From: Candidatus Nomurabacteria bacterium
Lineage (GTDB): Bacteria > Patescibacteriota > Minisyncoccia > Phycocordibacterales > UBA9973
Reading direction: 5' to 3'
Assembly (NCBI GenBank): GCA_016699365.1
Contig: CP064973.1
Span: forward strand, 639,916-703,915
DNA length: 64,000 bases
Shown piece after piece: positions 50,511 to 64,000 of this stretch (positions are counted from its first letter, which is position 1; each line of letters begins with the position of its first letter). The notes below the pieces were generated by a model. That model searched no databases. It was not told where the DNA came from and saw only the letters and a program-made list of their open reading frames with translations. The translations under genes were made by a program, and so were the position numbers.

Positions 50511-50535
50511 AAAAACCCGAGTTAATCTCGGGTTT
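50511..50535 (+). terminator. intrinsic terminator (AAAACCCGAG-TTAAT-CTCGGGTTTT)
   Basis: After purA. Confidence 0.6.
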
Positions 50536-50653: not shown

Positions 50654-50998
50654 ATGAAGACAGAAAAAACCAGATACCGCACTATTTCCGATGGACATGT
50701 AGAATTTCTACAATATTATCGCACCTACAAAGTATTCTTTGGGCTCATCAAATTAAGCGCATGGACCAATGTTTGGTACCCTTACTTTGACAAGCTATGG
50801 GGACGAACACTCGACTCCTCTGGATATAACGGATATGCTTGCACTTACAATACAAACCTTGAAAAATTCAAGGATGATTGGCCAAACATAGAAGACTACT
50901 TCAAATGGGCAGAAGAACAGCAGAAAATACTTGAAGCAGAGGCAAAAGAGTATAAGGAAGAGATAGAGAAAAAGAAAGGTGAAGTAAAGATGTTGTAA
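50654..50998 (+). CDS. hypothetical protein (114 aa)
   Basis: ORF track, followed by a terminator at ~51020-51052. Confidence 0.4.
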   Translation: MKTEKTRYRTISDGHVEFLQYYRTYKVFFGLIKLSAWTNVWYPYFDKLWGRTLDSSGYNGYACTYNTNLEKFKDDWPNIEDYFKWAEEQQKILEAEAKEYKEEIEKKKGEVKML

Positions 50999-51155
50999 AA
51001 ATACAATAACTAAACTTCTTAAAGCATCATTTTTAAAGTGATGCTTTTTTATTTGATTTGCGTCACGAATACTAAGTCTACTAGTATTACTTCGAAACAC
51101 TGGACGGATTAAGTACTTGCTTGTGATCCACAATAATTTGTTCGCCATCGCTCTA

Positions 51156-51220
51156 TGTGGTCACGAATCACTAAGTATTTTATTTCGATTACTCATAAAA
51201 TACAAAGTGTTCGCGACCCC
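51156..51220. repeat. 65-bp direct repeat copy 1 (internally an imperfect hairpin GTCACGAA...GTATTTTAT-N11-ATAAAATAC...TTCGCGAC)
   Basis: Identical to 51304-51368. A degenerate third copy lies at ~51062-51105. Confidence 0.7.
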
Positions 51221-51303
51221 ACCTCGCCTGTCGCAGGGCGACATGACTGCGGCTTCACCGCGTAGCAAAAAATCCCAAGCAGTTGGGATTTTTCTGTTGT
51301 GCT

Positions 51304-51368
51304 TGTGGTCACGAATCACTAAGTATTTTATTTCGATTACTCATAAAATACAAAGTGTTCGCGACCCC
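51304..51368. repeat. 65-bp direct repeat copy 2
   Basis: Perfect identity with copy 1, 148-bp period. Confidence 0.7.
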
Positions 51369-51410
51369 GGCTCGTGGTTTTGTGTGCTCACAAAACATCA
51401 CTGCGCCCGT

Positions 51411-51458
51411 CACACATAACAAAAAGACTGGAGCAGTCCAGTCTTTTTGTTATGTGTG
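51411..51458. terminator. exceptionally long hairpin (22-bp perfect stem CACACATAACAAAAAGACTGGA/TCCAGTCTTTTTGTTATGTGTG, loop GCAG)
   Basis: Read directly. T-rich on both flanks. Confidence 0.5.
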
Positions 51459-51502
51459 AGCCTAATCGAGATGCGACCCAAAGATTCATTGCCCTGTAAG
51501 GA

Positions 51503-51697
51503 TTATTTTAACCTTTCCTTGGCGTCAGATCGACCCTTCTCGAGAGTAGCTTTCTTTGTATACAAATGAGGGTTTTGCTTCCTATCTTGATCTAGTAACC
51601 ATCGAAATACTGCGACCACTCTATCACTTTCTTCTTTAGTCCAATTTTTAGGATTTCTTTTATCTTCTTGGTTCATAAAAAGTGACAAAAGTGACAC
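51503..51697 (-). CDS. hypothetical protein (64 aa)
   Basis: ORF track. Last gene of the minus-strand operon. Confidence 0.3.
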   Translation of the reverse strand: MSLLSLFMNQEDKRNPKNWTKEESDRVVAVFRWLLDQDRKQNPHLYTKKATLEKGRSDAKERLK

Positions 51698-51740
51698 AGG
51701 TTCGACTATAAAAGTTACAGATTACTGTAACTTTTATAGT

Positions 51741-52283
51741 CTACAAACCCCAAGAATCATGAGCTTCTTTTGTGTAATGATTTAAAGTTGTTTTTGGGTG
51801 ATTATTCATATCAAATTGAGAGATTGCATCTGCTATCGGTTCCTTTTTAAAAGGGATATGAATAATTCCAACCTGCCTGTTGCTTATTGCTTTAGATAAT
51901 TCAGCAGGCCATAGATGCGAAAGAGCTGATGGATCCATAATTCTGTTGTATCCAGTGTAAGTAACTATAATTGGGATTTTGCAAGTTTCGACAGCGTACT
52001 TAATTTCAAAAGGAACCCAGTCAGTATCCAGTTTTGTAGTTTGACCAATAATCAAAAGTAAATGTTTTGAATTATTCATTCTTGCTATCAATGCTCGACG
52101 TAGAGTTTCCTTTCTACTTGAATCTCTAACAGCTCCTGTCTTTTCATGACTATTAGCAAAGCTAAAGTCATCATCTCTTACTCTCCAACCTTTCAGTAAA
52201 CTGTAGTACTTCATATCTGAAGCGGTTGGGTTTGTTTCTCCGTCTGCATGAAAAGCTATGTATGTTCCACTTCTGTATGCCAT
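51741..52283 (-). CDS. TIR-like domain protein (ThsB-like, DUF1863-type), paralogue 1
   Basis: YIAFHADGE..., ...SKHLLLIIGQTTKLDTDWVPFEIKYAVETCKIPIIV matches the ThsB pattern (memory of B. cereus ThsB). Confidence 0.65.
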   Translation of the reverse strand: MAYRSGTYIAFHADGETNPTASDMKYYSLLKGWRVRDDDFSFANSHEKTGAVRDSSRKETLRRALIARMNNSKHLLLIIGQTTKLDTDWVPFEIKYAVETCKIPIIVTYTGYNRIMDPSALSHLWPAELSKAISNRQVGIIHIPFKKEPIADAISQFDMNNHPKTTLNHYTKEAHDSWGL

Positions 52284-52286
52284 AAA

Positions 52287-53129
52287 TTAATTATGTAAAG
52301 ACTTTAAAAAATCTTGAATTTCTAATAAATTAACCTTTTCTTTATCTTCTTCTCGTATTATCAAAACCAGTTCCTTTGAAATTGTCTCAACTCTTGAGTT
52401 AATGATAAATGACAAAAGAATTAGATTGATTGGTAGCTTAAATGAAATACCAGGAACTCTTGCTAGGTTTGTACCCATAACAGGCATAACGATAGTTTTT
52501 TGCTCTCCTTCAATTCTGATCTTAGTCCAAAGGTTTTGAAGCGATACCCATAGGCTATTTATATCCGAGGTGGCTTTTAGATCAGATCCCATTCGGCTAT
52601 AAGCACAGCAAAAAAACTTCCTATTCGGTGTTGAGAGTGCTACTACTGTGCCAATTTTATATCTCTTATTTTTACCTCGAGTTTTCTCTGTGTCTTCTTC
52701 TGATTCTTCATTTTGTAATAATGTATCAAGATCAGTATCAAGTTTGTTTTGATTATTTTCATACATTGAAACTAAAAACTGACCTTGCATACTATCCTTA
52801 CTTACAACATCACCTATCTCTGTATCAAAAGTATCACTGAACCCAATCACAAGATGTCCAGATTGGTCGAATATATTACCAACCTTTATACCGATTTTTA
52901 CATCAGGATTTGAAAATGATTCAGAAAAACTAGTTTGTGGCCATGCTCTAAAGAGAGCAATAATCGCAGATATAATGATCACTGAAACCCACCCTTTCCA
53001 TCCATAACTAGGAAGATTTGTATAACTAAAAGTAACTACCTGAATGATCCCACTAATCACACCAACTGACACAAGAAAGTTCGTACCAAATTTACGAAAC
53101 ATTCTTCTTGAAAGAATAGAATTTATCAT
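52287..53129 (-). CDS. 2TM + Macro-domain protein (ThsA-like effector of type II Thoeris)
   Basis: Two N-terminal TM helices. The C-terminal motif order fits a Macro fold (IGIKVGNIF...HLVIGFSDTF...GDVV; KIGTVVALSTPN...KFFCCAY; TIVMPVMGTNLARVP). Confidence 0.55.
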   Translation of the reverse strand: MINSILSRRMFRKFGTNFLVSVGVISGIIQVVTFSYTNLPSYGWKGWVSVIIISAIIALFRAWPQTSFSESFSNPDVKIGIKVGNIFDQSGHLVIGFSDTFDTEIGDVVSKDSMQGQFLVSMYENNQNKLDTDLDTLLQNEESEEDTEKTRGKNKRYKIGTVVALSTPNRKFFCCAYSRMGSDLKATSDINSLWVSLQNLWTKIRIEGEQKTIVMPVMGTNLARVPGISFKLPINLILLSFIINSRVETISKELVLIIREEDKEKVNLLEIQDFLKSLHN

Positions 53130-53638
53130 AAGCCGAGTTGTTGATACACAGAATCAGTATATGTATATCGATGATCTTGATAATCTATATGATTCTTCCA
53201 TTTATGATAATTATCTGGAAAATGATCTAAGGCATACTGAATCGCCTTTAATTTAAAAGGTACTGAAATAGTATATTTCCAGTCTTTAATGGCAGAAGGA
53301 CAAAGGTTATCATCGTAACCTTTTTTATTATTTAAATTAACAATTACTATCGGTATGTCTTTTTTTCTTGCCAACTCAATTTCCCATGGTAAAAATTTTC
53401 TCAGATACTTAGTATTATCTCCGACCAATAAAAGCATTTGTTTAGAGTTTGCCATTCGTACTCTAAGTTGAGCTTTTATTGATTCTTCGGTGCTTGTATC
53501 CCTCGCACTATTTAGGTCATGAGCATTTAAAAAATCAAATTCAATATGATCATGTTCTTTCCATGCAGTCATTAAGCGATAATATTTCATATTGTTATCT
53601 CCATCGAAAGCAACATAAGTTTTATTCTTGTAGGACAT
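53126..53638 (-). CDS. TIR-like domain protein (ThsB-like), paralogue 2
   Basis: YVAFDGDNN..., ...SKQMLLLVGDNTKYLRKFLPWEIELARKKDIPIVIV. Confidence 0.65.
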   Translation of the reverse strand: MSYKNKTYVAFDGDNNMKYYRLMTAWKEHDHIEFDFLNAHDLNSARDTSTEESIKAQLRVRMANSKQMLLLVGDNTKYLRKFLPWEIELARKKDIPIVIVNLNNKKGYDDNLCPSAIKDWKYTISVPFKLKAIQYALDHFPDNYHKWKNHIDYQDHRYTYTDSVYQQLGL

Positions 53639-53643
53639 ATTGT

Positions 53644-53874
53644 TTATCCACGAGGTGGAAATGGGTCATTTCCATAGCTGTTACGCTCTTGGATCTTTCC
53701 GTCTTTACCATGAATAAAATGTTCAACCTTTGATTTTTCGGCAACTTTTTCAGCTCTATCAAGAGCATTATTTTTTGTATGATGTGAAGAGACAGGAGTT
53801 GATGATCCCTCTTTTTTATTTTCCCACATACTACGATCCGAATTGTATACCGTGTGTATATTTTTGTTAGCCAT
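53644..53874 (-). CDS. DUF2188-like small protein
   Basis: 76 aa, pattern HTVYNSDRSMWENKKEGS...EHFIHGKDGKIQERNSYGNDPFPP (memory). Confidence 0.45.
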   Translation of the reverse strand: MANKNIHTVYNSDRSMWENKKEGSSTPVSSHHTKNNALDRAEKVAEKSKVEHFIHGKDGKIQERNSYGNDPFPPRG

Positions 53875-53885
53875 ATATTTATAAA

Positions 53886-54572
53886 TTAACTTTTAATAAT
53901 TCCGACAACCTTTCCACTTAACTGGAAATCATCACCCTCATGAATAAATATCGGGAGATATTTATCAGTTGAATCCGCTTCAAGAACGATACGATTGTTT
54001 GCTTTGTCATTTTTGTATCTCTTGATAGTTGCCATTCCGTCTATAACAGCGACAACGATATCTCCGTTCTTGTAGTTTTTATACCCACTATCTACCAAAA
54101 CGAAATCTCCGCTCTCTATAGTATTCTTGTCATCTACTTTTGCGAGATTCATACTGTTACCGTCTGCGATAACAGAGTAGAGATCTTTCTTGTTGTATGG
54201 CAACATAGAAGATGAAACCTTGAGATACTGCTGAATATTTTGTTCGGCAAATATAGTTGCAGGACCACAGTTTGCAGATCCAACAACAGGGAGTGAGAAC
54301 ACTATATTGACGGTTGATTTCACAAGACCTCGCTTTACAGGCTTTATAACCCCTTGTTCAAGGTTCATCTGAATCATTCCAGCCTTTTCAAGCTGTAATA
54401 AGTGATATTTCACTATCTGCGGTTTGTCAGGCACGCCAATTTTATCGGCTATTGTTCTAAGGCTGTATGATCCAATGTTGTTCGGATCACTATCTATGAG
54501 AGCTAAAAGCTGTTTCTGTTTGTTGTGCATACACTCATTATAGCATACTTTTAAACCTGCAACAATATCCAT
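53886..54572 (-). CDS. LexA/CI-like repressor (N-terminal wHTH + S24 peptidase)
   Basis: Ser nucleophile in GNSM and Lys in KRYK of the S24 autopeptidase domain. The wHTH is LRTIADKIGV. Confidence 0.75.
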   Translation of the reverse strand: MDIVAGLKVCYNECMHNKQKQLLALIDSDPNNIGSYSLRTIADKIGVPDKPQIVKYHLLQLEKAGMIQMNLEQGVIKPVKRGLVKSTVNIVFSLPVVGSANCGPATIFAEQNIQQYLKVSSSMLPYNKKDLYSVIADGNSMNLAKVDDKNTIESGDFVLVDSGYKNYKNGDIVVAVIDGMATIKRYKNDKANNRIVLEADSTDKYLPIFIHEGDDFQLSGKVVGIIKS

Positions 54573-54605
54573 TTGACAGTTTTAACACCCTTTTGGTATA
54601 CTTTC
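54573..54605 (+). promoter_or_regulatory. sigma70-like promoter (TTGACA-18-TATACT) giving a leaderless transcript at ATG 54609; divergent from the repressor gene
   Basis: Read directly. Confidence 0.4.
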
Positions 54606-54608
54606 CCT

Positions 54609-55028
54609 ATGGAGCAAAGTTTGCAATTAAATCGAGTAGCACAGCTTCCAAAGAAAGGTGAAAAAGTCATCGTTCTTCAGCTTACCGACATTCAATTGCA
54701 CTCTAATGCAAGACCTACCCAATCGGTTGGTGGTGCAATACGACGCTCCATAGAAAATAATAAGCCTGGTCGTATCTTTTCTTCTCTTGAGAAGAAGCAA
54801 GAATCGAGTGTTGATCAAAATTCAATAGAGTTCACAATGCCGTTTGCAATGAACGATCCTGTTCTAAGACAAACAATCCATGATTACCAACAACAAGGTT
54901 ATCGTGTGTTGATTCAAATGCCGAAGTCAGGATTACCAATTCATCTTGGCAAGGATGCTGTCGAATTTATGAACAGTACTCGAGGAAAGCGAATCTTGAG
55001 GAAGATAAAGAAAGACAAAGGAAATTAA
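54609..55028 (+). CDS. hypothetical protein (139 aa; first gene of the rightward operon)
   Basis: ORF track, start reset to MEQSLQL. Confidence 0.4.
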   Translation: MEQSLQLNRVAQLPKKGEKVIVLQLTDIQLHSNARPTQSVGGAIRRSIENNKPGRIFSSLEKKQESSVDQNSIEFTMPFAMNDPVLRQTIHDYQQQGYRVLIQMPKSGLPIHLGKDAVEFMNSTRGKRILRKIKKDKGN

Positions 55029-55187
55029 ATAAATACGCGTCGTAAAAGCGAATAGTGCAACGCCACAAGCCATGCCTATTCCGCGCAAGAAGTAGTTTGA
55101 GGTTTTTCGGACCTCTACTTATTTCGTGTGTGGAATAGGCTTTTTCTATATCCATACATTTTATTAAAGATTAATTAATAAAATGCT

Positions 55188-56462
55188 ATGAAAAAACTTT
55201 CATGGACTACAGGAGTTCGAGAGGTCAAAGACCTACTCCCTTGGCAAGAAAACCCAAGAAAAATCTCAAAGGTTGCGTTAGATAAATTAAAGAAGAAGAT
55301 CGTACAAAACGGCTTCCACAGTGTGATAGTGATTGATACTGACAATACGATTCTGTCAGGCAACCAAAGAAAGACCGCTCTCACAGAACTTGATATCAGC
55401 ACCGTAGATGTGATGATCCCTAGTCGTAAGCTAAGTGATGCGGAACGAAGAAGGATCGGTATTGAAAGCAATATCAATGACGGCGAATGGGATTTTGAGA
55501 AATTGAAGTCATTTGATTTGGAACTGCTCCAATTTGCAGGATTCGATGAAAAAGAATTAGTGAAGTTTTGGGACGAAGAAAAAGACACTAAAGACGACAA
55601 GTTCGATGTAGACAAGGAGCTTAAGAAAATTAAAACACCTCAAACAAAGTTGGGTGATCTTATTGTCATGGGCAATCATAAGTTGCTTTGCTCAAGCTCG
55701 ACCGATATCACTGCGGTTAAAAAACTGTTCGGAGATGATAGAGCTACTGCTATCTACAGTGATCCACCTTTTAATATCGGGCTTTCCTATGACAAAGGTG
55801 TCGGCAATAAATCCAACTACGGAGGGACATTTGATGATAATCAGTCGCCTGAAGCGTACAAGGAATTTATACGCCAAGTTCTTACGTCATCACTCGCCAT
55901 ATCAACCAAAGATACTCATGTCGCATTTTGGTGTGATGAAGCGTGGGTGTGGGTTTTTCAAACCCTGTATATGGAACTAGGCGTAAAGAACCGAAGACTG
56001 AACATTTGGATCAAGAACAACTCTTCGCCTATACCAACCGTCGCATTTAACAAGTGTGCGGAGTATTGCGTGTATGGGACAAAAGGGTCGCCTTACTTGT
56101 CTGATCTAATCAAAAATCTTAATGAGATTCAAAACAAGGATTGTACTACTGGCAATCAACTTCTTGAAGATATCTCTAATATCTGGGCAACCAAGCGACT
56201 ACCATCGAACCAAATGGAACACCCTACAAGCAAAAATCCTGAACTACACCACAAGTTCATCATGCGATGCACGAAGCCAGGAGACATAATCTTTGACGCT
56301 TTTTCTGGTTCTGCCAGCACCATGATTTGTGCGGAACAATTGGATCGCAAGGTGTACTCTCTTGAAATTGAACCCGTGTTCTGCGACTTGGCAATTCGCA
56401 GATACGAAAAACTGACTGGTCGCAAAGCAAAAGTAATCAAGAACTTCTATGAAAAAGAATAA
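55188..56462 (+). CDS. ParB-like nuclease domain fused to DPPF-type (N6-adenine/N4-cytosine) DNA methyltransferase
   Basis: ParB-N region (VIVIDTDNTILSGNQR). MTase motif IV IYSDPPFN and motif I FDAFSGSAST. Confidence 0.7.
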   Translation: MKKLSWTTGVREVKDLLPWQENPRKISKVALDKLKKKIVQNGFHSVIVIDTDNTILSGNQRKTALTELDISTVDVMIPSRKLSDAERRRIGIESNINDGEWDFEKLKSFDLELLQFAGFDEKELVKFWDEEKDTKDDKFDVDKELKKIKTPQTKLGDLIVMGNHKLLCSSSTDITAVKKLFGDDRATAIYSDPPFNIGLSYDKGVGNKSNYGGTFDDNQSPEAYKEFIRQVLTSSLAISTKDTHVAFWCDEAWVWVFQTLYMELGVKNRRLNIWIKNNSSPIPTVAFNKCAEYCVYGTKGSPYLSDLIKNLNEIQNKDCTTGNQLLEDISNIWATKRLPSNQMEHPTSKNPELHHKFIMRCTKPGDIIFDAFSGSASTMICAEQLDRKVYSLEIEPVFCDLAIRRYEKLTGRKAKVIKNFYEKE

Positions 56463-56787
56463 ATTTCAAGATCAGTTCCTTGATGAACTGCGAAAAGTAC
56501 CGATTGTTCAAGTGGCTTGTGAGAAGACAGGATTATCTCGCAATAGTATTTATCGTTGGAGAAAAGATGATAAAGAATTTCTCAAGAAAATGGATGATGC
56601 CCTTGCCGAGGGTGTCGCATTGGTAAACGACATGAGTGAAAGCCAACTACTCACACTCATTAAGGAGAAGAATTATCCTGCAATTAGCTTCTGGCTTAAA
56701 CACCGCAATGATAACTATAAAAATAAGCTAGAGATCACTACTAAAGAAGATTCCGAACAGCTTACACCGTCACAGCAAAAATCGTGA
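56449..56787 (+). CDS. HTH-domain protein, possible terminase small subunit
   Basis: N-terminal HTH CEKTGLSRNSIYRWRK. Position immediately upstream of TerL. Confidence 0.4.
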   Translation: MKKNKFQDQFLDELRKVPIVQVACEKTGLSRNSIYRWRKDDKEFLKKMDDALAEGVALVNDMSESQLLTLIKEKNYPAISFWLKHRNDNYKNKLEITTKEDSEQLTPSQQKS

Positions 56788-56802
56788 AGCAGGCACTTAA
56801 AC

Positions 56803-58353
56803 TTGCCAACATCACAAAGTCGAAATCAATTAAAAACATTAATTCTAAAAAGCACCATGACTAAAATAATTCCAAATGCATTGGTGAATACCATGCTCAA
56901 AGATCGTTCTGTTCGTACCTCTATTACCAAAGACAGTTTTCTGTATTTCTTCCACTTCTACTACGCCCACTATGTGAAATACGAAACTGCTGACTTTCAA
57001 AAAGAGATTATTCATAATCTTGAAAAAAGCTCGACAGAGAATATGTACGTTGTCGCATTCCGTGGATCAGGAAAATCTACTCTGGTAACAACTGCATATC
57101 CTATCTGGGCAATACTTGGAAAACAGCAAAAGAAGTTCTGTATTATCTTTTGCCAAACTCGTGCACAAGCAAAACAGCACATGATGAATATCCGTACTGA
57201 GCTTGAGGGTAACGATGTTCTTAAAAAGGATCTTGGACCATTCCAAGAAGAAAGTGATGAGTGGGGTTCGTTCTCATTAGTATTCAAAAAGCACGGAGCA
57301 AGAATCACCGTAGCTTCTGCCGAGCAAAGTATCCGTGGTATTCGCCACAACGAACACCGTCCAGACTTAATAATCTGTGATGACGTTGAGGACGTGCAAT
57401 CTACCAAAAACCGTGAGGGACGAGACAAAACATATCACTGGCTTCGAGGTGAAGTTATCCCTGCTGGCGATAGAAACACTCGACTAATTATTGTTGGAAA
57501 CTTACTCCACGAAGATTCACTCTTGATGCGTATTAAAGACGAAATTGCCAAAGGTAAAGCAAAAGGAATATTCAAAGAGTACCCACTGATAGATAATCAC
57601 GGCGTGTGCTTATGGTCAGGTAAATACAAAAGCGAGAAAGACCTTGAGGATGAAAAGTTGAAGGTTTCTAGCGATATATCATGGCAACGAGAATACCTGT
57701 TACGCATTATTCCAGACGATGATCAAGTTATTTATCCTGAATGGATCAACTACTATGACGAATTGCCTGGCGAAAAGCACCGAGGATATCGAGGTACTTA
57801 TGCAGGTGTCGATCTTGCGATTTCAGCTTCAGAAACTGCCGATGATACTGCTGTTGTATTTGCTCATATATATTCACGCCGTGAGAAAATGCGAATATAC
57901 ATATTGCCTAACCCTATCGCAAAGAAACTTAACTTTCCTGCACAAGTAGATCTCATGAAAGATATTCGTAGCACCATGCTCATAAAAAGTACCGATGAAC
58001 TGTTTGTGGAAAGCGTAGCGTATCAGGAAGCACTACCGCAAATGCTTGAACACCAAGGTGTTAAGGCGACAGCAATCAAACCTAAAGGAGACAAACGAAC
58101 TCGACTTGCCCTAACTTCGACTGCAATAAAATCATCAAAGATATTATTCCCAAGACAAGGATGCGAGAGACTTATTGAGCAACTTGTAGGGTTTGGAGTA
58201 GAAAAGCATGATGACCTTGCCGATGCATTTTCGTTGCTGATAAACTCAACTATGGATAAGCATGCCAAAGATTCAACATGGCTTATGTACTGGATGGGAG
58301 ATGAAGAACCTTTGTACTATAGAGATTATGTTGATATGGACATAAAAAAGTAG
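56803..58353 (+). CDS. phage terminase large subunit
   Basis: Walker A FRGSGKST, Walker B LIICDD. C-terminal RNaseH-like nuclease (GVDLAISASETADDTAVVFA). Confidence 0.7.
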   Translation: MPTSQSRNQLKTLILKSTMTKIIPNALVNTMLKDRSVRTSITKDSFLYFFHFYYAHYVKYETADFQKEIIHNLEKSSTENMYVVAFRGSGKSTLVTTAYPIWAILGKQQKKFCIIFCQTRAQAKQHMMNIRTELEGNDVLKKDLGPFQEESDEWGSFSLVFKKHGARITVASAEQSIRGIRHNEHRPDLIICDDVEDVQSTKNREGRDKTYHWLRGEVIPAGDRNTRLIIVGNLLHEDSLLMRIKDEIAKGKAKGIFKEYPLIDNHGVCLWSGKYKSEKDLEDEKLKVSSDISWQREYLLRIIPDDDQVIYPEWINYYDELPGEKHRGYRGTYAGVDLAISASETADDTAVVFAHIYSRREKMRIYILPNPIAKKLNFPAQVDLMKDIRSTMLIKSTDELFVESVAYQEALPQMLEHQGVKATAIKPKGDKRTRLALTSTAIKSSKILFPRQGCERLIEQLVGFGVEKHDDLADAFSLLINSTMDKHAKDSTWLMYWMGDEEPLYYRDYVDMDIKK

Positions 58354-58425
58354 TCGCGAGTATGCGACGTATCTCTAGTTCTGCATAGACTATGCACCAC
58401 CAACTGGTCTGTCATTAATTAATAT

Positions 58426-59706
58426 ATGACAGAAGTCGAACAAAGCCAGATGAAATATTGCTTGTACGCTCGTAAATCAACCGAAGCAGAAGAAAAGCAA
58501 GCCCTTTCTATTGATTCCCAAATCAAGGAAATGAAGCAGATTGCCGAGCGAGAAAATCTAACCATAGTTGAGATCCGTAAGGAATCTCACTCTGCAAAAG
58601 AATCTGGACAAAGACCAGTATTTGAGGAGATCGTAAAAGATATTGATACGGGGATATTCAACGGAATCATTACATGGGCACCTGATAGATTATCTCGTAA
58701 TGCAGGTGATCTTGGAAAACTTGTAGATAGAATGGATCAAAGGAAACTGATTCAGATCAAAACTTTTGGTCAGACTTTTTCCAATTCACCAAGTGATAAG
58801 TTCTTGTTGATGATCCTTTGTAGTCAGGCAAAACTCGAAAATGATAACAAGAGTATTAATGTAAAGCGTGGTATGAGAGCTAGATGTGAAATGGGTTTAT
58901 GGCCAGTACAACCACCAACAGGATACAGAAAGCCTAATCAACGACTAGCTAAGTGTGAGGTAGAAATCGATCCAGAACGATCTGATACCATACGACAAAT
59001 ATTCGAGAAGATTAGTTATGAAAAATGGAGCGTATCGAAAGTACACGCATGGCTACGATACGATCTTGATTTCAAAACCCATAGAGGTTTTCATCTAAGT
59101 TTAGGAAATGTATTCAAAATTATAAATAATACTTTCTACTATGGTCGCTTTGAGTTCCCACAAGGATCAGGTGTTTGGTATGAGGGAAAGCATAAACCCA
59201 TTATCACTAAAGAGTTGTTTGATGAGACCAGAAATTCTATCAAGTCGCAGACGATAAAATCACAAGGTAAGGAGTTCGCCTTTACGCGAATTATGAAATG
59301 TGGAGCTTGCGGATCAGGTATTACTGCCGATGAAAAATTCAAGAAGTTATTGAATGGTGGAGTTAACCGACATGTATATTATCGATGCACAAAAGCCAAA
59401 GACAGGAATTGTAAAAATCCTGCATTAAACGAAACTGAGCTTATCGAATCACTACTCGATATGGTTGATACCTTGAACATAAACAAGGTAAAACTCACCG
59501 CAAAGCTTGATATTGAAATTCAAAAGTTTAAGAAATTGCAGGCAATGTTCTTAGGAAAGAAAAAGACAGAAAAAATAGAACCGATTGATCTCAAGGACTA
59601 CACAAAATTTGTACTAAAAGAGGGATCTCCACTAGAGCAGAGATCCATCTTGGAATGTATCAGTAGTGAGTTGGTTTTGAAGAATAAAATAATAAAAATT
59701 ACTTAA
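58426..59706 (+). CDS. large serine recombinase (integrase)
   Basis: N-terminal catalytic YARKSTEAEEKQ...SIDSQ, recombinase domain, zinc-ribbon CGACGSG...YYRCTKAKDRNC, C-terminal coiled coil. Confidence 0.8.
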   Translation: MTEVEQSQMKYCLYARKSTEAEEKQALSIDSQIKEMKQIAERENLTIVEIRKESHSAKESGQRPVFEEIVKDIDTGIFNGIITWAPDRLSRNAGDLGKLVDRMDQRKLIQIKTFGQTFSNSPSDKFLLMILCSQAKLENDNKSINVKRGMRARCEMGLWPVQPPTGYRKPNQRLAKCEVEIDPERSDTIRQIFEKISYEKWSVSKVHAWLRYDLDFKTHRGFHLSLGNVFKIINNTFYYGRFEFPQGSGVWYEGKHKPIITKELFDETRNSIKSQTIKSQGKEFAFTRIMKCGACGSGITADEKFKKLLNGGVNRHVYYRCTKAKDRNCKNPALNETELIESLLDMVDTLNINKVKLTAKLDIEIQKFKKLQAMFLGKKKTEKIEPIDLKDYTKFVLKEGSPLEQRSILECISSELVLKNKIIKIT

Positions 59707-60847
59707 TCTTAATTATTGATTCAGTTGTTTTATCGTAAGTGTAGTTAACAATCTCTCCCTTTATTATTAGTTCAATCACATTTCCGATCACCATAATTGG
59801 TGCAATAAACCACTCTTTCGGAGTGTAGTTTTTTCCATTGTTGTCAGTGATTTCAATATCTAGACAGGAATCACTAAAGAAGCGATGTATCAATCGTTCA
59901 AATCTTTGAGGATTCATATTGAAACATCTATAGGTCGCAACAATAGACACTGGAGCCATGAGATAAGTTGGATCTTGCTGTGCGTTTTTTATACGATCTT
60001 CAACACTCGTAGTCGAGAACCCAATCTTGAAAAGATTTTTTGTACTAGAAATTCTAGGATTATCACTTAATGACTTAAGTACATAGATATAGCCAGTTTC
60101 TGAATCTCCGTCTTCAACGCTTGCAATATCTTGATTATCTTTTACGGCATAGCCCGCGTCAGACAATCTCTTTCCTAATGATCGCAAAAGCACACTTGAT
60201 TCAGTACCGTTTTCGTAAATACAACGAGTTCGTCGGTTTATCTTTTGACTGTTTCCTCGATATGGATCATAGATCTTTTCTAGATATATTAAGACACCAC
60301 TAAGAACAAAGAAGTCTCCTTGCTTCATCTCGCTTTCAACGAAAGTGGCAAGTTTTTTAGTACCATTTTTTAAATCTCTCTGAGTCTGTGCAAATAAATG
60401 CTCATACTGGTCAAAATCAGCACAAATCTCTCTTTGAGCCACGAAGTCAGGATCAGAACGATCTTGTCGTATCTCTGGAACATTCTTTATGTTAAAAACA
60501 GAACTATCTTCAATAGAAAGTAAGTCCAGATCATCATCTTCAAAAATATCACTTACTGTATCAATATCTTTTTTCTCAATCTTTAAAAGACCATGAGTAT
60601 CATACTTACTTAGGAAGTCTCGTTGCTCTTTATTTTCTCTGATGTGCTTAAGGCGTGATGCGAGTTTGTGTTCATGAATATCTCCGCCACTTTTAGGTTC
60701 AGCATTATGTACTGCAAAGAACTCATTTATTTCCATAAATGATTCTGTTAAACGATCATCAGGCGTAGCAGAAACAGCTTTCTTGTCTATGTCGAGAAGA
60801 CCTAAGTCATCATCATTTATTAAATCTAGTAAATCGTTTTTATCCAT
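59699..60847 (-). CDS. T5orf172/GIY-YIG-like nuclease domain protein with acidic repeat N-terminus
   Basis: C-terminal GYIYVLKSLSDN...KIGFSTTSVEDRIKN. N-terminal repeated DDDLxLL(D/S)I(D/E) motifs. Confidence 0.5.
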   Translation of the reverse strand: MDKNDLLDLINDDDLGLLDIDKKAVSATPDDRLTESFMEINEFFAVHNAEPKSGGDIHEHKLASRLKHIRENKEQRDFLSKYDTHGLLKIEKKDIDTVSDIFEDDDLDLLSIEDSSVFNIKNVPEIRQDRSDPDFVAQREICADFDQYEHLFAQTQRDLKNGTKKLATFVESEMKQGDFFVLSGVLIYLEKIYDPYRGNSQKINRRTRCIYENGTESSVLLRSLGKRLSDAGYAVKDNQDIASVEDGDSETGYIYVLKSLSDNPRISSTKNLFKIGFSTTSVEDRIKNAQQDPTYLMAPVSIVATYRCFNMNPQRFERLIHRFFSDSCLDIEITDNNGKNYTPKEWFIAPIMVIGNVIELIIKGEIVNYTYDKTTESIIKIK

Positions 60848-60848
60848 A

Positions 60849-62786
60849 TTAATTTTGAATTTGTTCAGCCTTGAGCTTCTTCAAGTACAGTACCGCTTCC
60901 GCCAAACGCTTCTCAAGGGGGTCAGACGAAGATATGTCTGGCTTTCGACCTGTTTGTATTGTGAACTCCTTAGCTTTAGGCCATAGGATCTTAACTTCTT
61001 CTGGTGTCATCTCGATTCGAGATGAATCAATTGTATCTTGAATAACCTTAAGGATACTTGAAGTCACTGATTTTGAGAGAATCTCAAAAGCTTCTTGGAA
61101 CGGATTGATACTGTCGATAAGGTCAATATTTAGATCATCAATATTCACAAACTGACCTGCCATACGAACAAATTTCTTATCACCAACTTCTTTGATTTCT
61201 CCGTTCTTGATTACAGAATCAACAACAACGTGTTGACGAACTTCCTCTACTTCAAGATCTGTTAGATCAGGGTATTTCATTTGAATAATCTTTGGGATCA
61301 TTACTTTGTTGATTACCTCGGGATCAACATTTCCAGGCAACGCTTTAATCATTTGATCATCTTGAAGAATTGAAGCTTTGAGGTCGTTGATATCAGATTC
61401 AATAATCTCTCGCACACGATCAGTACTTGGTGCTTTAAAACCCTTTATTTTTATTTCACCTGGAGTAAAGGTAGTGTCATCATTTGGGAATCGTGGTTTG
61501 AAGTTATAGTGCGGAGCCATGACTTGTTCCATAAGCAAAGAACAAGTGATCGCCTTGAGCATGTTGTTTACTGACACTTTAACCTCGCCGTCTTTTGCAT
61601 CAGGCTGAGCAATAAGATTAGTAAATTGTGCATGAGTTTTGTTTGCACTGTCACGAGTACAGCGACCGATAATCTGAATGATCTCCGTGAGAGAGCTTCG
61701 GTAGCCCACAGTCAAAGCATGTTCACAGTATGGCCAGTCAAATCCTTCCTTTGCCATACCAAGAGCAATAATGATATCCATGTCATCCTCCTTTTTCATT
61801 GTGCGGAGGTAGTTTGAAATCTTATCTCGATCAACTGAATCATCGACAAGGTTTGCTACTTTAAGCATCTTTCCGTCACCGTCACGCTTTACATAGATAA
61901 CACCGGTCTCATGATCTTGATGATCTACTTCTCCAATAATGTCCAAGATTAGATCAACCTCGTTGAGCTTGTCTTTTGTAGATTCTCCAGAGTTTACGTT
62001 TGGAATGTGTAAAATCGTTTTCTTATTCGTATCCAAAACCTCAGCAATCGCTGATGTGTATTTACCTTGATAAAAGTGATATCCAATACCCAAGGTTTTT
62101 AAATAGGTATAACCGTTCAATTGCTGATAGTAGTTGTATGTCACTTTCTGGAACTTTGCCTCATCTTGTGGCAACAGAACTGCAACACCATCGCCTCGAA
62201 AATATGATCCAGTCATCGCAATGATATGAGCATTCGAGTTCGTCATTATTCCATGCAGAACTCGTCCCAAAATACTGCTTTCCTTGTCGGCAGACACATG
62301 ATGAAATTCATCGATCGCAATGAGAATGTCATTAAATTTTGCATCTTCAATTTGCTCACATGCAAAACGAAGAGTGGCATGAGTACAGATAAGAATCTTC
62401 TCATCGTTATCCATAAAATTCTTGAATGCCTCAACCTTTCCTTTGGCATTATCAAGACCTGGGGTACAAAGGTTATAGTTATCATTTGGTTTCCAGTCTG
62501 CGAAAAATCCATTATCAGTTAGATTGGTTTCGCTAAATGATCCACCAATTGATTTTTCAGGAACGGCGACAATCACTTTTTTGATACCTTGATTAGTCAG
62601 CTTATCTAGAGCAAGGAACATCAAAGCACGAGATTTTCCCGATGCTGGAGGAGCTTTCAAAAGTAGGTATTGAGCTGTTCTTTTCTCAAATGCTTTTGCC
62701 TGCATTTCACGCATACCAAAATTATTGATTTTGGTACTTTCTCCTGTTTGGGCATATGTTGCTTCTGCAACTTGAATGGTTTTCAT
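60849..62786 (-). CDS. SF2 DExH helicase (ResIII-like N-terminus + Helicase_C)
   Basis: Motif I APPASGKS, motif II IDEFHH, motif VI IIQIIGRCTR. ~200-aa uncharacterised C-terminus. Confidence 0.7.
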   Translation of the reverse strand: MKTIQVAEATYAQTGESTKINNFGMREMQAKAFEKRTAQYLLLKAPPASGKSRALMFLALDKLTNQGIKKVIVAVPEKSIGGSFSETNLTDNGFFADWKPNDNYNLCTPGLDNAKGKVEAFKNFMDNDEKILICTHATLRFACEQIEDAKFNDILIAIDEFHHVSADKESSILGRVLHGIMTNSNAHIIAMTGSYFRGDGVAVLLPQDEAKFQKVTYNYYQQLNGYTYLKTLGIGYHFYQGKYTSAIAEVLDTNKKTILHIPNVNSGESTKDKLNEVDLILDIIGEVDHQDHETGVIYVKRDGDGKMLKVANLVDDSVDRDKISNYLRTMKKEDDMDIIIALGMAKEGFDWPYCEHALTVGYRSSLTEIIQIIGRCTRDSANKTHAQFTNLIAQPDAKDGEVKVSVNNMLKAITCSLLMEQVMAPHYNFKPRFPNDDTTFTPGEIKIKGFKAPSTDRVREIIESDINDLKASILQDDQMIKALPGNVDPEVINKVMIPKIIQMKYPDLTDLEVEEVRQHVVVDSVIKNGEIKEVGDKKFVRMAGQFVNIDDLNIDLIDSINPFQEAFEILSKSVTSSILKVIQDTIDSSRIEMTPEEVKILWPKAKEFTIQTGRKPDISSSDPLEKRLAEAVLYLKKLKAEQIQN

Positions 62787-62790
62787 AAAA

Positions 62791-64000
62791 TTATTTGTTA
62801 GTTTTTCTAGTAATCATCTCTTCATAAAGTTTGAACAAGTGAGCTAGTCGATCCTCGTCACCTTCAAACGGTTTGCTTCGGTATATCTGATCTATTGCTT
62901 GATCTAAATATTTGTGAGCTTCTCGCAATCCGTCAGGCATTTTATTTGGATCATATAATTCAGCTATTGTTTTGTCTGGATATCTTTCTCGCTCGCTGAG
63001 AATATTATATGCATGGGTACTAAGTGCTTCTTTTTGTTTTTCTGTAATAGCAGGAAAAGGAAACGTATTGTACGACAACGCAGTCAGGTATCGAATACTT
63101 TCTCCTAATTTTCCCGAGGTCAACCTTACCCACAGTAGATGCATTTTTGAACTTATTACTGAAAATATGTAGGTTGGCGGATCATAAATAACTGCTGCCG
63201 AACTCAAAACTATTACATCTTTTGATGAAAAACCTATTGGCATGTATTCTCTTCTTTCAGAAAAAACAATTGGAATAATTATTAAAGAATTTTTTGCAGT
63301 ATGAGTATATCTAAATTGATGTGGTCTCTTAACAAGACCTCTTGCCACATCGCCACCGTTCATTCTAAATTCTCTAACTCGATTAATTCTTTCTGCAATT
63401 TCAGGTATTCGCTCTGCATCCTTACGGTCCTCATCATTAATCCATAGACACCACCTATCAATATGGTTAATGAATTCATCTGATCCAATTGCTCTTCTCA
63501 GAAACTTTCTTGCATCTGGGTATTGATTTTGGAGCTTATTCTTTTCTGTTGTATTTAATGTTAAATTTCCAGCTTCATAAGGACTATTACCAGTAATCAT
63601 GACTGGGAAGTTAGAAATTGGTTTTAAAGATTTAGAAATATAAAAATCATCACCATTAACTAAGTAACCGTTTATATTTTTTACTTCCAATTTAATATTT
63701 CCTGTATAAAGATATTTTTTACCCTTAGATCTATTCCTTATGCCAATGATAGAACAAGTAACACCTGCTTTATTCTTTGCATTATTACTCCATGTAAAGG
63801 GCTTGTATGCAAAAAAGATTTCTTTGTTTAAAATAGAGATTTTAGGCCACATCTGTTCGACCTGAGATCCTTCACATAACGAACTCGTAGTAACAAAAGC
63901 AAACTTACAACTGTCTGTTATGTACAAGGCCGCTTTTATAAACCAACAAGCAACATAGTCCAATTCTTTATAATTACCGATTTTGTCAAAACAAATACCC
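62791..64000 (-). CDS. gamma-class N6-adenine DNA methyltransferase, C-terminal part with TaqI-like target-recognition domain (5' end beyond window)
   Basis: The frame continues upstream of the track's TTG start (..GICFDKIGNYKELDYVACWFIKAALYI..KFAFVTTSS). This matches the post-NPPY helix/strand of TaqI-type MTases. The C-terminal ...RLAHLFKLYEEM tail is as in MmeI-like enzymes (memory). Confidence 0.55.
   Translation of the reverse strand, partial: GICFDKIGNYKELDYVACWFIKAALYITDSCKFAFVTTSSLCEGSQVEQMWPKISILNKEIFFAYKPFTWSNNAKNKAGVTCSIIGIRNRSKGKKYLYTGNIKLEVKNINGYLVNGDDFYISKSLKPISNFPVMITGNSPYEAGNLTLNTTEKNKLQNQYPDARKFLRRAIGSDEFINHIDRWCLWINDEDRKDAERIPEIAERINRVREFRMNGGDVARGLVKRPHQFRYTHTAKNSLIIIPIVFSERREYMPIGFSSKDVIVLSSAAVIYDPPTYIFSVISSKMHLLWVRLTSGKLGESIRYLTALSYNTFPFPAITEKQKEALSTHAYNILSERERYPDKTIAELYDPNKMPDGLREAHKYLDQAIDQIYRSKPFEGDEDRLAHLFKLYEEMITRKTNK

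What the first reader, a model, noticed from the sequence alone, without database searches (positions are those of the whole stretch)
59699..64000. Three-gene operon: N6A-MTase(+TRD) -> SF2 DExH helicase -> T5orf172/GIY-YIG protein (disassembled Type ISP/III-like system?)
The three genes are transcribed on the minus strand with 4-nt gaps or overlaps: a gamma-class adenine MTase with a TaqI-like TRD (5' end outside the window), a 645-aa helicase (APPASGKS, DEFHH, QxxGRxxR), and a 382-aa protein ending in a T5orf172/GIY-YIG-like domain with acidic N-terminal repeats. Canonical Type III Res and Type ISP enzymes fuse helicase and a PD-(D/E)xK nuclease in one chain with the MTase. Here the nuclease would be a separate GIY-YIG-family protein. 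The operon ends convergently 8 nt inside the integrase stop. So it is either the insertion target or further cargo.
Basis: partly seen in the sequence, partly recalled or inferred. Interest (0 to 1): 0.6.

Follow-up and report, generated by a model that had tools for sequence, protein, structure and literature searches.

The report
YeeA-YeeB-YeeC type restriction-modification cassette
The three genes form a real, co-inherited unit: a DNA methylase that recognises a target sequence, a motor protein and a separate DNA-cutting protein, a widespread kind of bacterial anti-virus cassette first described in 2009 whose mechanism is still unsolved, so this is a new copy of a known thing.

Summary
On the minus strand lie the 3' part of an MmeI-family methyltransferase (62791 to beyond 64000), a 645-aa SF2 DExH helicase (60849-62786) and a 382-aa T5orf172/GIY-YIG protein (59699-60847). 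The gaps are 4 nt and 1 nt. The last gene overlaps a convergent serine recombinase by 8 nt.

The triad belongs to the YeeA(DnmA)-YeeB-YeeC family. Morgan et al. 2009 defined it as MmeI homologues that lack the PD-ExK nuclease motif and are always followed by a helicase and a GIY-YIG gene. All 80 related loci from many phyla keep helicase then T5orf172; 72 also show the MmeI homologue upstream and the rest are cut short or degenerate.

The missing N-terminus was read from a metagenome contig, L089. Its protein is 98.5% identical to the window fragment and has NPPY but no D-X9-E-X-K.

Helicase and nuclease are under strong purifying selection (dN/dS 0.015 and 0.045). The block holding the target-recognition domain (TRD) is exchanged between otherwise near-identical cassettes.

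The likeliest function is a Type I/ISP-like restriction system with the nuclease supplied in trans. This is inferred, and published phenotypes conflict. Verdict: new member of a known kind.

The parts
62791..64000 (-). 3' 1.2 kb of the yeeA/dnmA-like gene: C-terminal part of the MmeI-type gamma N6-adenine MTase domain, MmeI_TRD and MmeI_C. The 5' ~1.5 kb lies beyond the window end and holds a degenerate MmeI_N domain, the helical spacer and the NPPY motif.
   Evidence: One search gives the translation. One search gives the Pfam hits MmeI_Mtase, MmeI_TRD and MmeI_C. One search gives PADLOC REase_MTase_IIG, 460 bits, profile positions 508-911 of 912. Searches show that the L089 orthologue is 896 aa and 98.5% identical over the window part.
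63073..64000 (-). Variable block of yeeA (MTase C-terminal part plus TRD), exchanged between otherwise near-identical cassettes. It presumably sets the recognition sequence.
Evidence: DNA homology to L001, L004, L006, L010, L018, L086 and L087 stops at 63072, at 63048 for L088 and at 63078 for L015. The block is 36% aa identical to L001, against 98% for the helicase.
62791..63072 (-). Conserved MmeI_C domain (last 93 codons plus the stop codon) of yeeA. It belongs to the conserved frame shared with the helicase and nuclease genes.
   Evidence: 85% aa identity to L001; MmeI_C, fragment residues 319-396.
60849..62786 (-). yeeB-like SF2 DExH helicase/translocase, 645 aa. The RecA1/RecA2 core is about residues 25-400. 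A conserved C-terminal region of about 250 aa has no known family.
   Evidence: About 70% identity across phyla. dN/dS 0.015. No solved relative.
59699..60847 (-). yeeC-like protein, 382 aa. It has N-terminal acidic DDLGLLD-type motifs and helices, a middle beta-rich domain (about 164-237), and a C-terminal T5orf172/GIY-YIG domain (252-360; GYIY 252-255, KIG 274-276, R285, E345 conserved).
   Evidence: AlphaFold model with pLDDT 76.6. BFVD Foldseek hits to T5orf172 and GIY-YIG proteins. dN/dS 0.045.
58426..59706 (+). Context, not part of the system: a large serine recombinase convergent with yeeC, overlapping it by 8 nt. It belongs to the phage-like element that carries the cassette.
   Evidence: The same arrangement is seen in L001 and L086. 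The recombinase lies on the other side of the cassette in L010, L011, L012 and L017.

Best explanation
This is a member of the YeeA(DnmA)-YeeB-YeeC family: a restriction-modification-like defence cassette of three components, plus an HTH controller gene just outside the window.

Proposed mechanism:
1. YeeA is an MmeI-type single-chain specificity-plus-methyltransferase subunit. It recognises an asymmetric site through its TRD and methylates one adenine to mark self DNA.
2. Its N-terminal domain is a catalytically dead remnant of the MmeI PD-ExK nuclease domain. It probably serves as the docking or communication module.
3. When YeeA meets an unmodified site, it recruits or activates YeeB, a stand-alone SF2 DExH ATP-dependent translocase, and YeeC. 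The C-terminal GIY-YIG (T5orf172) domain of YeeC cuts the DNA. The conserved acidic N-terminal motifs of YeeC are candidate tethers to its partners.
4. Exchange of the TRD block diversifies specificity.
5. The HTH controller, with a palindromic operator, delays restriction when the cassette enters a new cell.

In this genome the cassette is cargo at the recombinase end of a phage-like integrated element in a CPR (Nomurabacteria-like) bacterium.

Shown here: gene content, family membership, loss of PD-ExK, intact MTase, helicase and GIY-YIG motifs, co-inheritance, purifying selection, TRD exchange and modularity.

Inferred: methylation-dependent self/non-self discrimination, translocation, cleavage by YeeC, the docking roles and the controller function.
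For: **Architecture and domains.**

**Conserved triad.** All 80 GTDB loci spanning Patescibacteria, Bacteroidota, Pseudomonadota, Campylobacterota, Planctomycetota, Spirochaetota and Actinomycetota keep helicase then T5orf172. The MmeI homologue lies upstream wherever enough flank is held, bar two degenerate loci (L027 truncated, L061 not extracted as one ORF). Junctions are mostly -23 to +23 nt.

**Loss of the nuclease motif.** D70 of MmeI falls in a deletion. E80 becomes K, H, Q or R (2 of 66 keep E). K82 becomes T, E, V, A and others, in none of the 66 full-length proteins. Phmmer aligns the L001 protein to MmeI (5hr4) only from residue 89. The L089 protein is 98.5% identical to the window fragment, has NPPY at 477 and no PD-ExK pattern.

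**Active genes, not relics.** Window versus L001: dS is about 1, with dN/dS 0.015 for the helicase and 0.045 for YeeC. Catalytic motifs are conserved.

**Co-divergence.** Spearman 0.78-0.87 between the YeeA core, YeeB and YeeC, against 0.14-0.18 for the TRD block. TRD exchange among near-identical cassettes is seen.

**Defence context.** Defence or accessory genes of the kind found inside Type I R-M operons sit between yeeA and yeeB in 24 loci: RhuM-Fic, Schlafen/AlbA_2, SIR2 plus HerA, Bro-N and KilA-N.

**Control and mobility.** A conserved palindrome TTGTTGTA..TACAACAA plus TATAAT lies in front of the HTH gene. The cassette is on 265 plasmids, 120 of them conjugative.

**Literature.** Morgan 2009 (PMC2731913) defined the family, found YeeA alone has no endonuclease activity, and proposed this mechanism. 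Inactivating yeeAB in Vibrio crassostreae restored phage sensitivity (bioRxiv 10.1101/2021.05.05.442762).
Against: - No restriction or cleavage has been shown for any member.
- In B. subtilis, the DnmA-YeeB-YeeC cluster did not restrict plasmid transformation (tested as a dnmA deletion) or three phages (tested as yeeB and yeeC single deletions). The DnmA motif is not depleted in phage genomes, and deleting dnmA is not toxic (PMC7261158, PMC9973331). The authors called it a relic.
- Non-toxicity of a dnmA deletion fits Type I-like dependence of restriction on the MTase subunit, but equally fits no restriction at all.
- The window itself lacks the N-terminus, so loss of PD-ExK rests on a 98.5%-identical proxy.
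- The helicase model was poor (pLDDT 54).
- No structural or sequence relative is solved, so the docking and tether roles are guesses.
- T5orf172 domains are annotated in places as DNA-binding rather than catalytic.
Confidence: 0.6

Rival explanations
1. The MTase is an orphan epigenetic enzyme and the rest is a decayed relic. YeeA only methylates DNA, for gene regulation, and YeeB and YeeC are non-functional leftovers. This was proposed for B. subtilis DnmA.
For: B. subtilis data show no restriction of plasmids or phages, no motif avoidance, and effects of m6A on promoters (PMC7261158, PMC9973331). Some loci are visibly degenerate, for example L027, where only YeeA residues 2-192 are detectable.
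Against: Helicase and YeeC show dN/dS of 0.015 and 0.045 at dS of about 1. All catalytic motifs are conserved across phyla. Synteny is kept in 80 loci. The TRD block is actively exchanged. A controller gene and operator are retained. Vibrio yeeAB gives phage resistance (10.1101/2021.05.05.442762).
Confidence: 0.1
2. This is a non-degradative, BREX-like exclusion system. YeeA marks self and senses unmodified sites. YeeB then remodels or blocks phage DNA replication, and the T5orf172 domain of YeeC acts mainly as a DNA binder rather than a nuclease.
For: No cleavage has ever been seen. The DnmA motif is not avoided by phages (PMC9973331). The MTase core is distantly related to PglX and DrmMI (weak hits). 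T5orf172 is often annotated as DNA-binding (descriptions).
Against: GIY-YIG-type residues (GYIY, KIG, R285, E345) are conserved at 95% or more. The fold matches GIY-YIG nucleases. C-protein-type control is typical of systems with a toxic nuclease. No PglZ, BrxC, DrmA or DrmB partners are present.
Confidence: 0.15
3. It is an ordinary MmeI-type Type IIL/IIG enzyme, with nuclease and MTase in one chain, that merely sits next to an unrelated helicase/GIY-YIG operon.
For: PADLOC calls the fragment REase_MTase_IIG (460 bits). A Pfam MmeI_N domain is detected in the full-length relatives. RefSeq sometimes names neighbours 'type IIL restriction-modification enzyme MmeI'.
Against: The catalytic D70, E80 and K82 are absent in 66 of 66 relatives and in the 98.5%-identical L089 protein. 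The neighbours are invariant and co-diverge. Morgan 2009 found no endonuclease activity for YeeA or MslORFHP (PMC2731913).
Confidence: 0.03
4. YeeB and YeeC form an independent, methylation-blind defence or abortive-infection pair, and YeeA is a hitch-hiking MTase. Alternatively, the cassette mainly serves the phage-like element, for addiction or for competition between elements.
For: The helicase and T5orf172 proteins are much more conserved than YeeA. The cassette travels on plasmids and phage-like elements. PADLOC lists a T5orf172-only candidate, PDC-S57, which gives a weak hit.
Against: No locus with enough flank shows YeeB-YeeC without YeeA. The YeeA N-terminal and MTase core co-diverges with YeeB and YeeC (0.79-0.87). 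The conserved, non-catalytic YeeA N-terminal domain is hard to explain without a partner.
Confidence: 0.1

Closest known systems
Bacillus subtilis DnmA (YeeA)-YeeB-YeeC cluster, and the 'second set' of MmeI homologues of Morgan et al. 2009 (PMC2731913; PMC7261158; PMC9973331). A Vibrio crassostreae yeeAB locus was reported to confer phage resistance (10.1101/2021.05.05.442762).
   Same: Same three proteins in the same order. The MmeI-like MTase/TRD has its first ~100 aa diverged and lacks PD-ExK. A DEAD/DExH helicase sits at +1 and a T5orf172/GIY-YIG protein at +2. No MTase gene directly flanks the triad (the nearest, a ParB-fused N6_N4 MTase, is three genes away). The locus looks horizontally acquired.
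   Different: This copy sits in a CPR bacterium, on a phage-like element with a serine recombinase. It carries an upstream HTH controller with a palindromic operator and has a TRD with no close match (61% at best in the word-indexed protein search; the one 98.5% match, L089, came from the metagenome DNA scan). Direct alignment to the B. subtilis proteins could not be done here. The B. subtilis YeeB and YeeC are reported to lack short C-terminal stretches and showed no defence.
MmeI and the Type IIL/IIG single-chain R-M enzymes (PDB 5HR4)
   Same: The syntenic L001 protein, used as proxy for the part outside the window, matches MmeI from MmeI residue 107 to the end (E 4.6e-193; DnmA itself is 38% identical per PMC7261158). 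It has the same helical spacer, gamma-class MTase, TRD and C-terminal domain. Modification of one strand only is likely.
   Different: The PD-ExK catalytic residues are lost. The enzyme is never stand-alone; it always comes with a helicase and a GIY-YIG gene.
Type ISP R-M enzymes LlaGI and LlaBIII (PMC3553950)
   Same: The same functional parts list: nuclease, SF2 helicase, gamma N6A MTase and TRD. A translocation-coupled cleavage model is plausible.
   Different: Type ISP enzymes are one polypeptide with an Mrr/PD-ExK nuclease. Here there are three separate proteins and a GIY-YIG nuclease. No significant sequence match of the helicase to any solved protein was found.
Type I R-M systems (HsdM/HsdS/HsdR)
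   Same: Separate modification/specificity and motor/nuclease components. Restriction probably depends on the MTase subunit. Specificity varies by TRD exchange. The same accessory genes (RhuM-Fic, Schlafen/AlbA_2 and others) are inserted inside the operon.
   Different: S and M are fused in one MmeI-type chain. The motor and the nuclease are two proteins. The nuclease is GIY-YIG, not PD-ExK. The recognition site is probably asymmetric and hemimethylated.
Type III R-M (Mod/Res), DISARM class 1 (DrmMI) and BREX (PglX)
   Same: An MTase plus an SF2 helicase. DrmMI and PglX share the MmeI-like MTase/TRD ancestry (weak hits).
   Different: Res fuses the helicase to a PD-ExK nuclease, and Mod is a beta-class MTase. 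DISARM needs DrmA, DrmB and DrmC. BREX needs PglZ, BrxC and others. None of these partners is present, and scores are far below the family cut-offs.

Membership tests
YeeA(DnmA)-YeeB-YeeC / MmeI-homologue 'second set' (Morgan 2009) | The MTase protein is highly similar to MmeI across the MTase, TRD and C-terminal domains. | tested here: met
   MmeI_Mtase 1.2e-32, MmeI_TRD 5.8e-70, MmeI_C 4.7e-25; the syntenic L001 protein matches 5hr4 MmeI at E 4.6e-193.
YeeA(DnmA)-YeeB-YeeC / MmeI-homologue 'second set' (Morgan 2009) | The first ~100 residues differ from MmeI and lack the PD-ExK motif (D70-X9-E80-X-K82). | tested here: met
   Not readable in the window itself, because the N-terminus lies beyond 64000. 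It was tested on L089, whose protein is 98.5% identical to the window's 402 aa: no D-X(8-12)-E-X-K in residues 1-160, and E80 becomes H and K82 becomes T. The same result holds in 66 of 66 cassette-linked full-length homologues. The MmeI N-terminus was verified against 5hr4.
YeeA(DnmA)-YeeB-YeeC / MmeI-homologue 'second set' (Morgan 2009) | A DEAD/DExH superfamily-2 helicase gene (YeeB-like) lies immediately downstream. | tested here: met
   The gap is 4 nt. Pfam gives ResIII, DEAD and Helicase_C. The arrangement is conserved in all 80 loci.
YeeA(DnmA)-YeeB-YeeC / MmeI-homologue 'second set' (Morgan 2009) | The next gene encodes a GIY-YIG-family (T5orf172) protein (YeeC-like). | tested here: met
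   The gap is 1 nt. Pfam gives T5orf172 2.6e-13 and MUG113 2.4e-13. The gene is present in every locus that extends far enough.
YeeA(DnmA)-YeeB-YeeC / MmeI-homologue 'second set' (Morgan 2009) | No second DNA methyltransferase belongs to the system. | tested here: met
   No MTase gene lies inside or directly flanking the cassette in the window, L001, L086 or L089. The nearest, a ParB-fused N6_N4 MTase at 55188-56462, belongs to the phage-like module and is absent from non-CPR loci.
YeeA(DnmA)-YeeB-YeeC / MmeI-homologue 'second set' (Morgan 2009) | Direct sequence homology to B. subtilis YeeB and YeeC. | not tested
Indirect support: JGI names homologues of the MTase 'YeeA', and RefSeq plasmids annotate the same triad as DNA methyltransferase, DEAD/DEAH helicase and GIY-YIG nuclease.
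MmeI-type Type IIL/IIG single-chain R-M enzyme | An N-terminal PD-ExK endonuclease with D70, E80 and K82, acting without partner genes. | tested here: not met
   Searches show the motif is absent. One search shows invariant partner genes.
Type ISP R-M (LlaGI/LlaBIII) | A single polypeptide combining Mrr nuclease, helicase, MTase and TRD. | tested here: not met
   There are three separate ORFs with stop codons between them, and the nuclease candidate is GIY-YIG.
Type III R-M | A Res subunit made of an SF2 helicase fused to a PD-(D/E)xK nuclease, and a beta-class Mod MTase. | tested here: not met
   The helicase has no nuclease domain by Pfam, NCBIfam or PADLOC. The MTase is the MmeI gamma type.
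DISARM class 1 / BREX | DrmA/DrmB/DrmC (DUF1998, PLD) or PglZ/BrxC partner genes, with the MTase reaching the family score cut-off. | tested here: not met
   DrmMI scores only 69.6 bits against 460 for REase_MTase_IIG. PglX models score 16-39 bits against cut-offs of 400-900. No partner genes appear in the neighbourhoods.

The most novel reading that the evidence does not exclude
The cassette is not a classical cutter. YeeA bound at unmodified sites would load the unusually conserved YeeB motor, and defence would work by translocation-driven interference with phage replication or packaging. YeeC would act mainly as a DNA-binding or nicking adaptor. This would explain why phages do not avoid the motif, why loss of the MTase is harmless, and why no cleavage has been seen. 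If so, this is a distinct fourth architecture of ATP-dependent, methylation-guided immunity, one that diversifies by TRD-block exchange and spreads as a controller-regulated module of about 6 kb, even into CPR bacteria.
Probability: 0.15. Interest if true: 0.7.

Novelty: new member of a known kind. Interest (0 to 1): 0.35.

Why it matters
The family is widespread. The capped helicase search scored 8000 candidate 90%-identity clusters, all significant. The cassette is on 265 plasmids and in many phyla. Yet its mechanism is still unknown 17 years after it was first noticed, and the best-studied copy, in B. subtilis, was written off as a relic.

This copy and its relatives argue that the family is active:
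- very strong purifying selection on the motor and the nuclease;
- exchange of the specificity block between near-identical cassettes;
- a controller gene with an operator;
- defence genes nested inside the operon.

The result also documents R-M-like immunity carried by a phage-like element in ultra-small CPR bacteria, next to a Thoeris-like system. It does not reveal a new kind of system.

Tried and rejected
- Exact-sequence look-ups of the window's helicase and of the 100%-identical P0001 found no contig on record.
- Megablast of 58400-64000 against phage genomes gave no match. tblastn against phages gave only 3 partial hits.
- A protein search with the window's MTase fragment found nothing above 61% identity and no full-length protein. 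This was solved later by a back-translated DNA pattern scan, which found nothing in viral contigs and one metagenome contig.
- The AlphaFold model of the helicase was too poor to use (pLDDT 54), because the allowed alignment was shallow.
- Foldseek of the YeeC model against the PDB gave no significant match. There were only weak eIF5A/EF-P-like hits for the middle beta domain, which I do not interpret.
- Profile searches of the PDB with helicase and YeeC alignments found nothing significant.
- hhalign of the YeeC alignment against the I-TevI catalytic domain, with the I-TevI sequence recalled from memory, gave no alignment. The mapping of GIY-YIG residues therefore rests on the Pfam T5orf172/MUG113 matches, on conservation, and on BFVD fold hits.
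- NCBIfam has no model for any of the three proteins. PADLOC has none for the helicase or YeeC beyond weak PbeA, Cas3 and PDC-S57 hits.
- I considered and rejected Type III, Type ISP, DISARM and BREX membership (see the membership test).

Full report
**1. The observation**

- A 382-aa ORF lies at 59699..60847.
- A 645-aa ORF lies at 60849..62786.
- A frame open from 62791 to the window end holds 402 codons.

The gaps are 4 nt and 1 nt. The 3' end of the last gene overlaps the convergent recombinase gene (58426..59706) by 8 nt.

Pfam assigns the truncated protein to MmeI_Mtase (C-terminal part only), MmeI_TRD and MmeI_C. It assigns the second protein to ResIII, DEAD and Helicase_C, and the C-terminus of the third to T5orf172 and MUG113. 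The 'integrase' is a large serine recombinase. PADLOC scores the fragment as REase_MTase_IIG at profile positions 508-911 of 912, so about 500 residues are missing beyond the window.

**2. The triad is a conserved unit**

The helicase has thousands of relatives. The closest (95-100% identity) come from Nomurabacteria, Magasanikbacteria, Paceibacterota and other CPR bacteria.

A 98%-identical copy on a 758-kb contig (L001) shows the whole arrangement: a 68-aa HTH gene, an 898-aa MmeI-family protein with MmeI_N, MmeI_hel, MTase, TRD and C domains, then the helicase, the T5orf172 protein, the convergent serine recombinase, a terminase-like gene and a ParB-type MTase.

A scan of one genome per species returned 80 loci, from Patescibacteria, Bacteroidota, Alpha-, Beta- and Gammaproteobacteria, Campylobacterota, Planctomycetota, Spirochaetota, Actinomycetota and one Methanosarcinaceae bin.
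- All 80 loci keep helicase then T5orf172.
- An MmeI homologue lies upstream in all 72 loci with enough upstream sequence.
- Junctions are usually overlaps or gaps of a few nucleotides.
- The serine recombinase and terminase are found only in the CPR group.

The same triad sits on 265 plasmids, 120 of them conjugative. RefSeq annotates it there as DNA methyltransferase, DEAD/DEAH box helicase and GIY-YIG nuclease family protein. It is almost absent from phage genome records.

**3. The decisive test: does the MTase carry its own nuclease?**

MmeI cuts with D70-X9-E80-X-K82. I checked its N-terminal sequence against PDB 5hr4.

The L001 protein aligns to MmeI only from residue 89 onward (E 4.6e-193). 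In an alignment of the N-termini of 66 full-length cassette-linked homologues:
- D70 falls in a deletion in all 66;
- E80 is K, H, Q or R in 64;
- K82 is never K.

The domain is still recognisably MmeI_N (FlxDff..fG and PRfxxVtDF are kept), so it is a degenerate nuclease domain.

Because the window's own TRD has no close match in the protein database (best 61%), I searched metagenome contigs with a back-translated peptide from the variable region. This found one contig, L089.
- L089 is 92% identical in DNA to window 59680-64000, right up to the window end.
- It encodes an 896-aa protein whose last 402 residues are 98.5% identical to the window fragment.
- Its N-terminus (MINLVTLQENL...KVLFHITTLEEDEH) has no D-X(8-12)-E-X-K in the first 160 residues.
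- NPPY is present at residue 477.

**4. This is a known family**

Morgan et al. 2009 (PMC2731913) split MmeI homologues into two sets. The second set, including B. subtilis YeeA, lacks the PD-ExK motif and differs in its first 100 residues. It is 'invariably' next to a DEAD-type helicase (YeeB-like) and a conserved protein with GIY-YIG motifs (YeeC-like). YeeA and MslORFHP showed no endonuclease activity. The authors speculated that the N-terminal domain binds the separate helicase and endonuclease, in a Type I-like system with single-strand modification.

Later work gives conflicting phenotypes.
- YeeA (renamed DnmA) methylates GACGAG and does not restrict plasmids (PMC7261158).
- The synteny is conserved, but the B. 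subtilis genes did not protect against three phages. The motif is not avoided by phages, so the cluster was called a relic (PMC9973331).
- In Vibrio crassostreae, inactivating yeeAB restored sensitivity to one phage group (bioRxiv 10.1101/2021.05.05.442762).

I found no paper giving a mechanism or a structure. No relative of the helicase or of YeeC is in the PDB.

**5. What the comparative data add**

*(a) The genes are under strong constraint.* Between the window and L001, synonymous sites are near saturation (dS about 1). dN/dS is 0.015 for the helicase, 0.045 for YeeC and 0.019 for the recombinase. Across phyla the helicase keeps about 70% identity along its whole length, including the unassigned C-terminal 250 residues. 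The GYIY, KIG, R285 and E345 positions of YeeC, and the first acidic motif (D13, G16, L17, L18), are conserved.

*(b) The specificity block is exchanged.*
- DNA homology between the window and relatives L001, L004, L006, L010, L018, L086 and L087 stops at 63072, at 63048 for L088 and at 63078 for L015. This is the TRD/MmeI_C junction.
- The block upstream is only 36% identical in protein to L001.
- Within the CPR clade the N-terminus, MTase core and C domain are 76-90% identical, but residues 481-595 are 59% and the TRD 43% identical.
- Four relatives that share 113 identical N-terminal residues (L001, L086, L087, L088) carry three different TRDs, since L086 and L087 encode the same protein.
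- Across 61 loci, pairwise divergence of the YeeA core, YeeB and YeeC is correlated (Spearman 0.78-0.87). The variable block is not (0.14-0.18). This figure is descriptive, because the pairs are not independent.

*(c) Extra genes are nested in the operon.* In 24 loci, extra same-strand genes lie between yeeA and yeeB: RhuM-Fic (9 loci), Schlafen/AlbA_2, Bro-N, KilA-N and a SIR2-HerA pair. From general knowledge, these are the kind of cargo nested in Type I R-M operons.

*(d) The CPR cassettes form a discrete module.* Homology between contexts begins about 46 nt before the HTH start codon. There, a conserved palindrome TTGTTGTA-N5/6-TACAACAA and a TATAAT box sit. Homology ends within 19 nt after the yeeC stop. 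A controller protein with a palindromic operator is the classical device that delays restriction in mobile R-M systems. This role is inferred here, not tested.

**6. Structure**

The YeeC model (mean pLDDT 76.6) has N-terminal helices, a disordered linker, a beta-rich middle domain and a confident C-terminal alpha/beta domain. The C-terminal domain matches T5orf172 and GIY-YIG proteins in the viral structure library. The PDB gave nothing significant. The helicase model was unusable.

**7. Context in the window**

The cassette lies at the end of a low-GC island that starts after purA (49152-50507). The island contains:
- a Thoeris-like trio (TIR, ThsA_Macro, TIR; 51741-53638);
- an S24 repressor;
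- a ParB-fused MTase;
- small and large terminase-like genes;
- the serine recombinase.

Relatives place the recombinase on either side of the cassette. In L010 the cassette lies between recombinase and terminase. L001, L086 and L089 have different sequence on the HTH side: tsaD, a Mur ligase gene and tRNA-Gln respectively. This favours 'cargo module of a phage-like element' over 'chromosomal insertion target'. The att sites were not mapped.

**8. Verdict**

But the system is the already described YeeA/DnmA-YeeB-YeeC family, so this is a new member of a known kind. The most likely function is a Type I/ISP-like restriction-modification system with a GIY-YIG nuclease in trans (confidence about 0.6). 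Restriction itself remains unproven, and published phenotypes disagree. Interest is moderate to low (0.35). The value lies in the evidence that the family is active and diversifying, and in its presence on a CPR mobile element.

Noticed in passing
window 51741-53638 (- strand): A Thoeris-like three-gene cluster: ThsB_TIR (180 aa), ThsA_Macro (280 aa) and ThsB_TIR (170 aa). It sits in the same low-GC island (GC 0.32-0.34) as the cassette. L001 carries different genes at this position, so the element has variable defence cargo.
   Followed up: partly
window ~50508-64000+: An integrated phage-like element without visible capsid genes. It contains an S24 LexA-like repressor (53886-54572), a ParB-fused N6_N4 MTase (55188-56462), an AlpA/HTH small protein (56449-56787), a terminase large subunit (56803-58353; phrog_38, 2.3e-76) and a serine recombinase. 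The left border lies between purA (ends 50507) and 51741. There is no tRNA in 40000-64000. It may be a satellite or a defective prophage of a CPR bacterium.
   Followed up: partly
window 63072 (TRD/MmeI_C junction): There is a sharp, recurrent recombination boundary. DNA homology to L001, L004, L006, L010, L018, L086 and L087 ends at this base, at 63048 for L088 and at 63078 for L015. Only L089 continues to the window end.
   Followed up: yes
L089 6480-6545; L001 7043-7090; L086 3036-3082 (outside the window, upstream of yeeA): A conserved palindrome TTGTTGTA-N5/6-TACAACAA followed by TATAAT lies directly before the 68-aa HTH gene. It looks like a C-box operator of a controller protein. The HTH gene is found only in the CPR-type cassettes.
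   Followed up: partly
L089 6363-6436: tRNA-Gln(CTG) lies immediately upstream of the cassette that shares the window's TRD. L015 has a homologous stretch. It is a possible integration hot-spot, and the yeeC side of L089 lacks the serine recombinase.
   Followed up: no
L020, L022, L036, L039, L046, L048, L049, L066, L068, L071, L072 and others (between yeeA and yeeB): Same-strand inserts of 0.5-3.9 kb: RhuM-Fic (9 loci), Schlafen/AlbA_2 with HATPase_c_4 (4-5 loci), Bro-N, KilA-N, SIR2 plus HerA, and two membrane or coiled-coil proteins with no Pfam match.
   Followed up: partly
helicase, window 60849-62786 and 80 loci: The helicase shows unusual conservation for a defence protein. It is about 70% identical across bacterial phyla over its full length, with mean pairwise identity 0.74, against 0.50 for YeeC and 0.42 for the TRD.
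   Followed up: partly
P0510 (709 aa, from the representative library): A protein with MmeI_N, MmeI_hel and a truncated MmeI_Mtase joined to the C-terminal ~200 residues of the helicase. It is either a deletion derivative or an assembly artefact.
   Followed up: no
L008, L010, L013, L055; P0344: Near-identical CPR-type cassettes (89-95% helicase identity) occur in bins labelled Izemoplasmatales, Bdellovibrionales and Gammaproteobacteria. More distant copies occur in Methanosarcinaceae and Woesearchaeota bins. This reflects either recent wide transfer or mis-binning of a mobile contig.
   Followed up: no
window 59680-59706: The last ~9 codons of the serine recombinase lie inside sequence that is homologous to the cassette's 3' flank in L089. 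The recombinase C-terminus may therefore have been created by the junction with the cassette.
   Followed up: no
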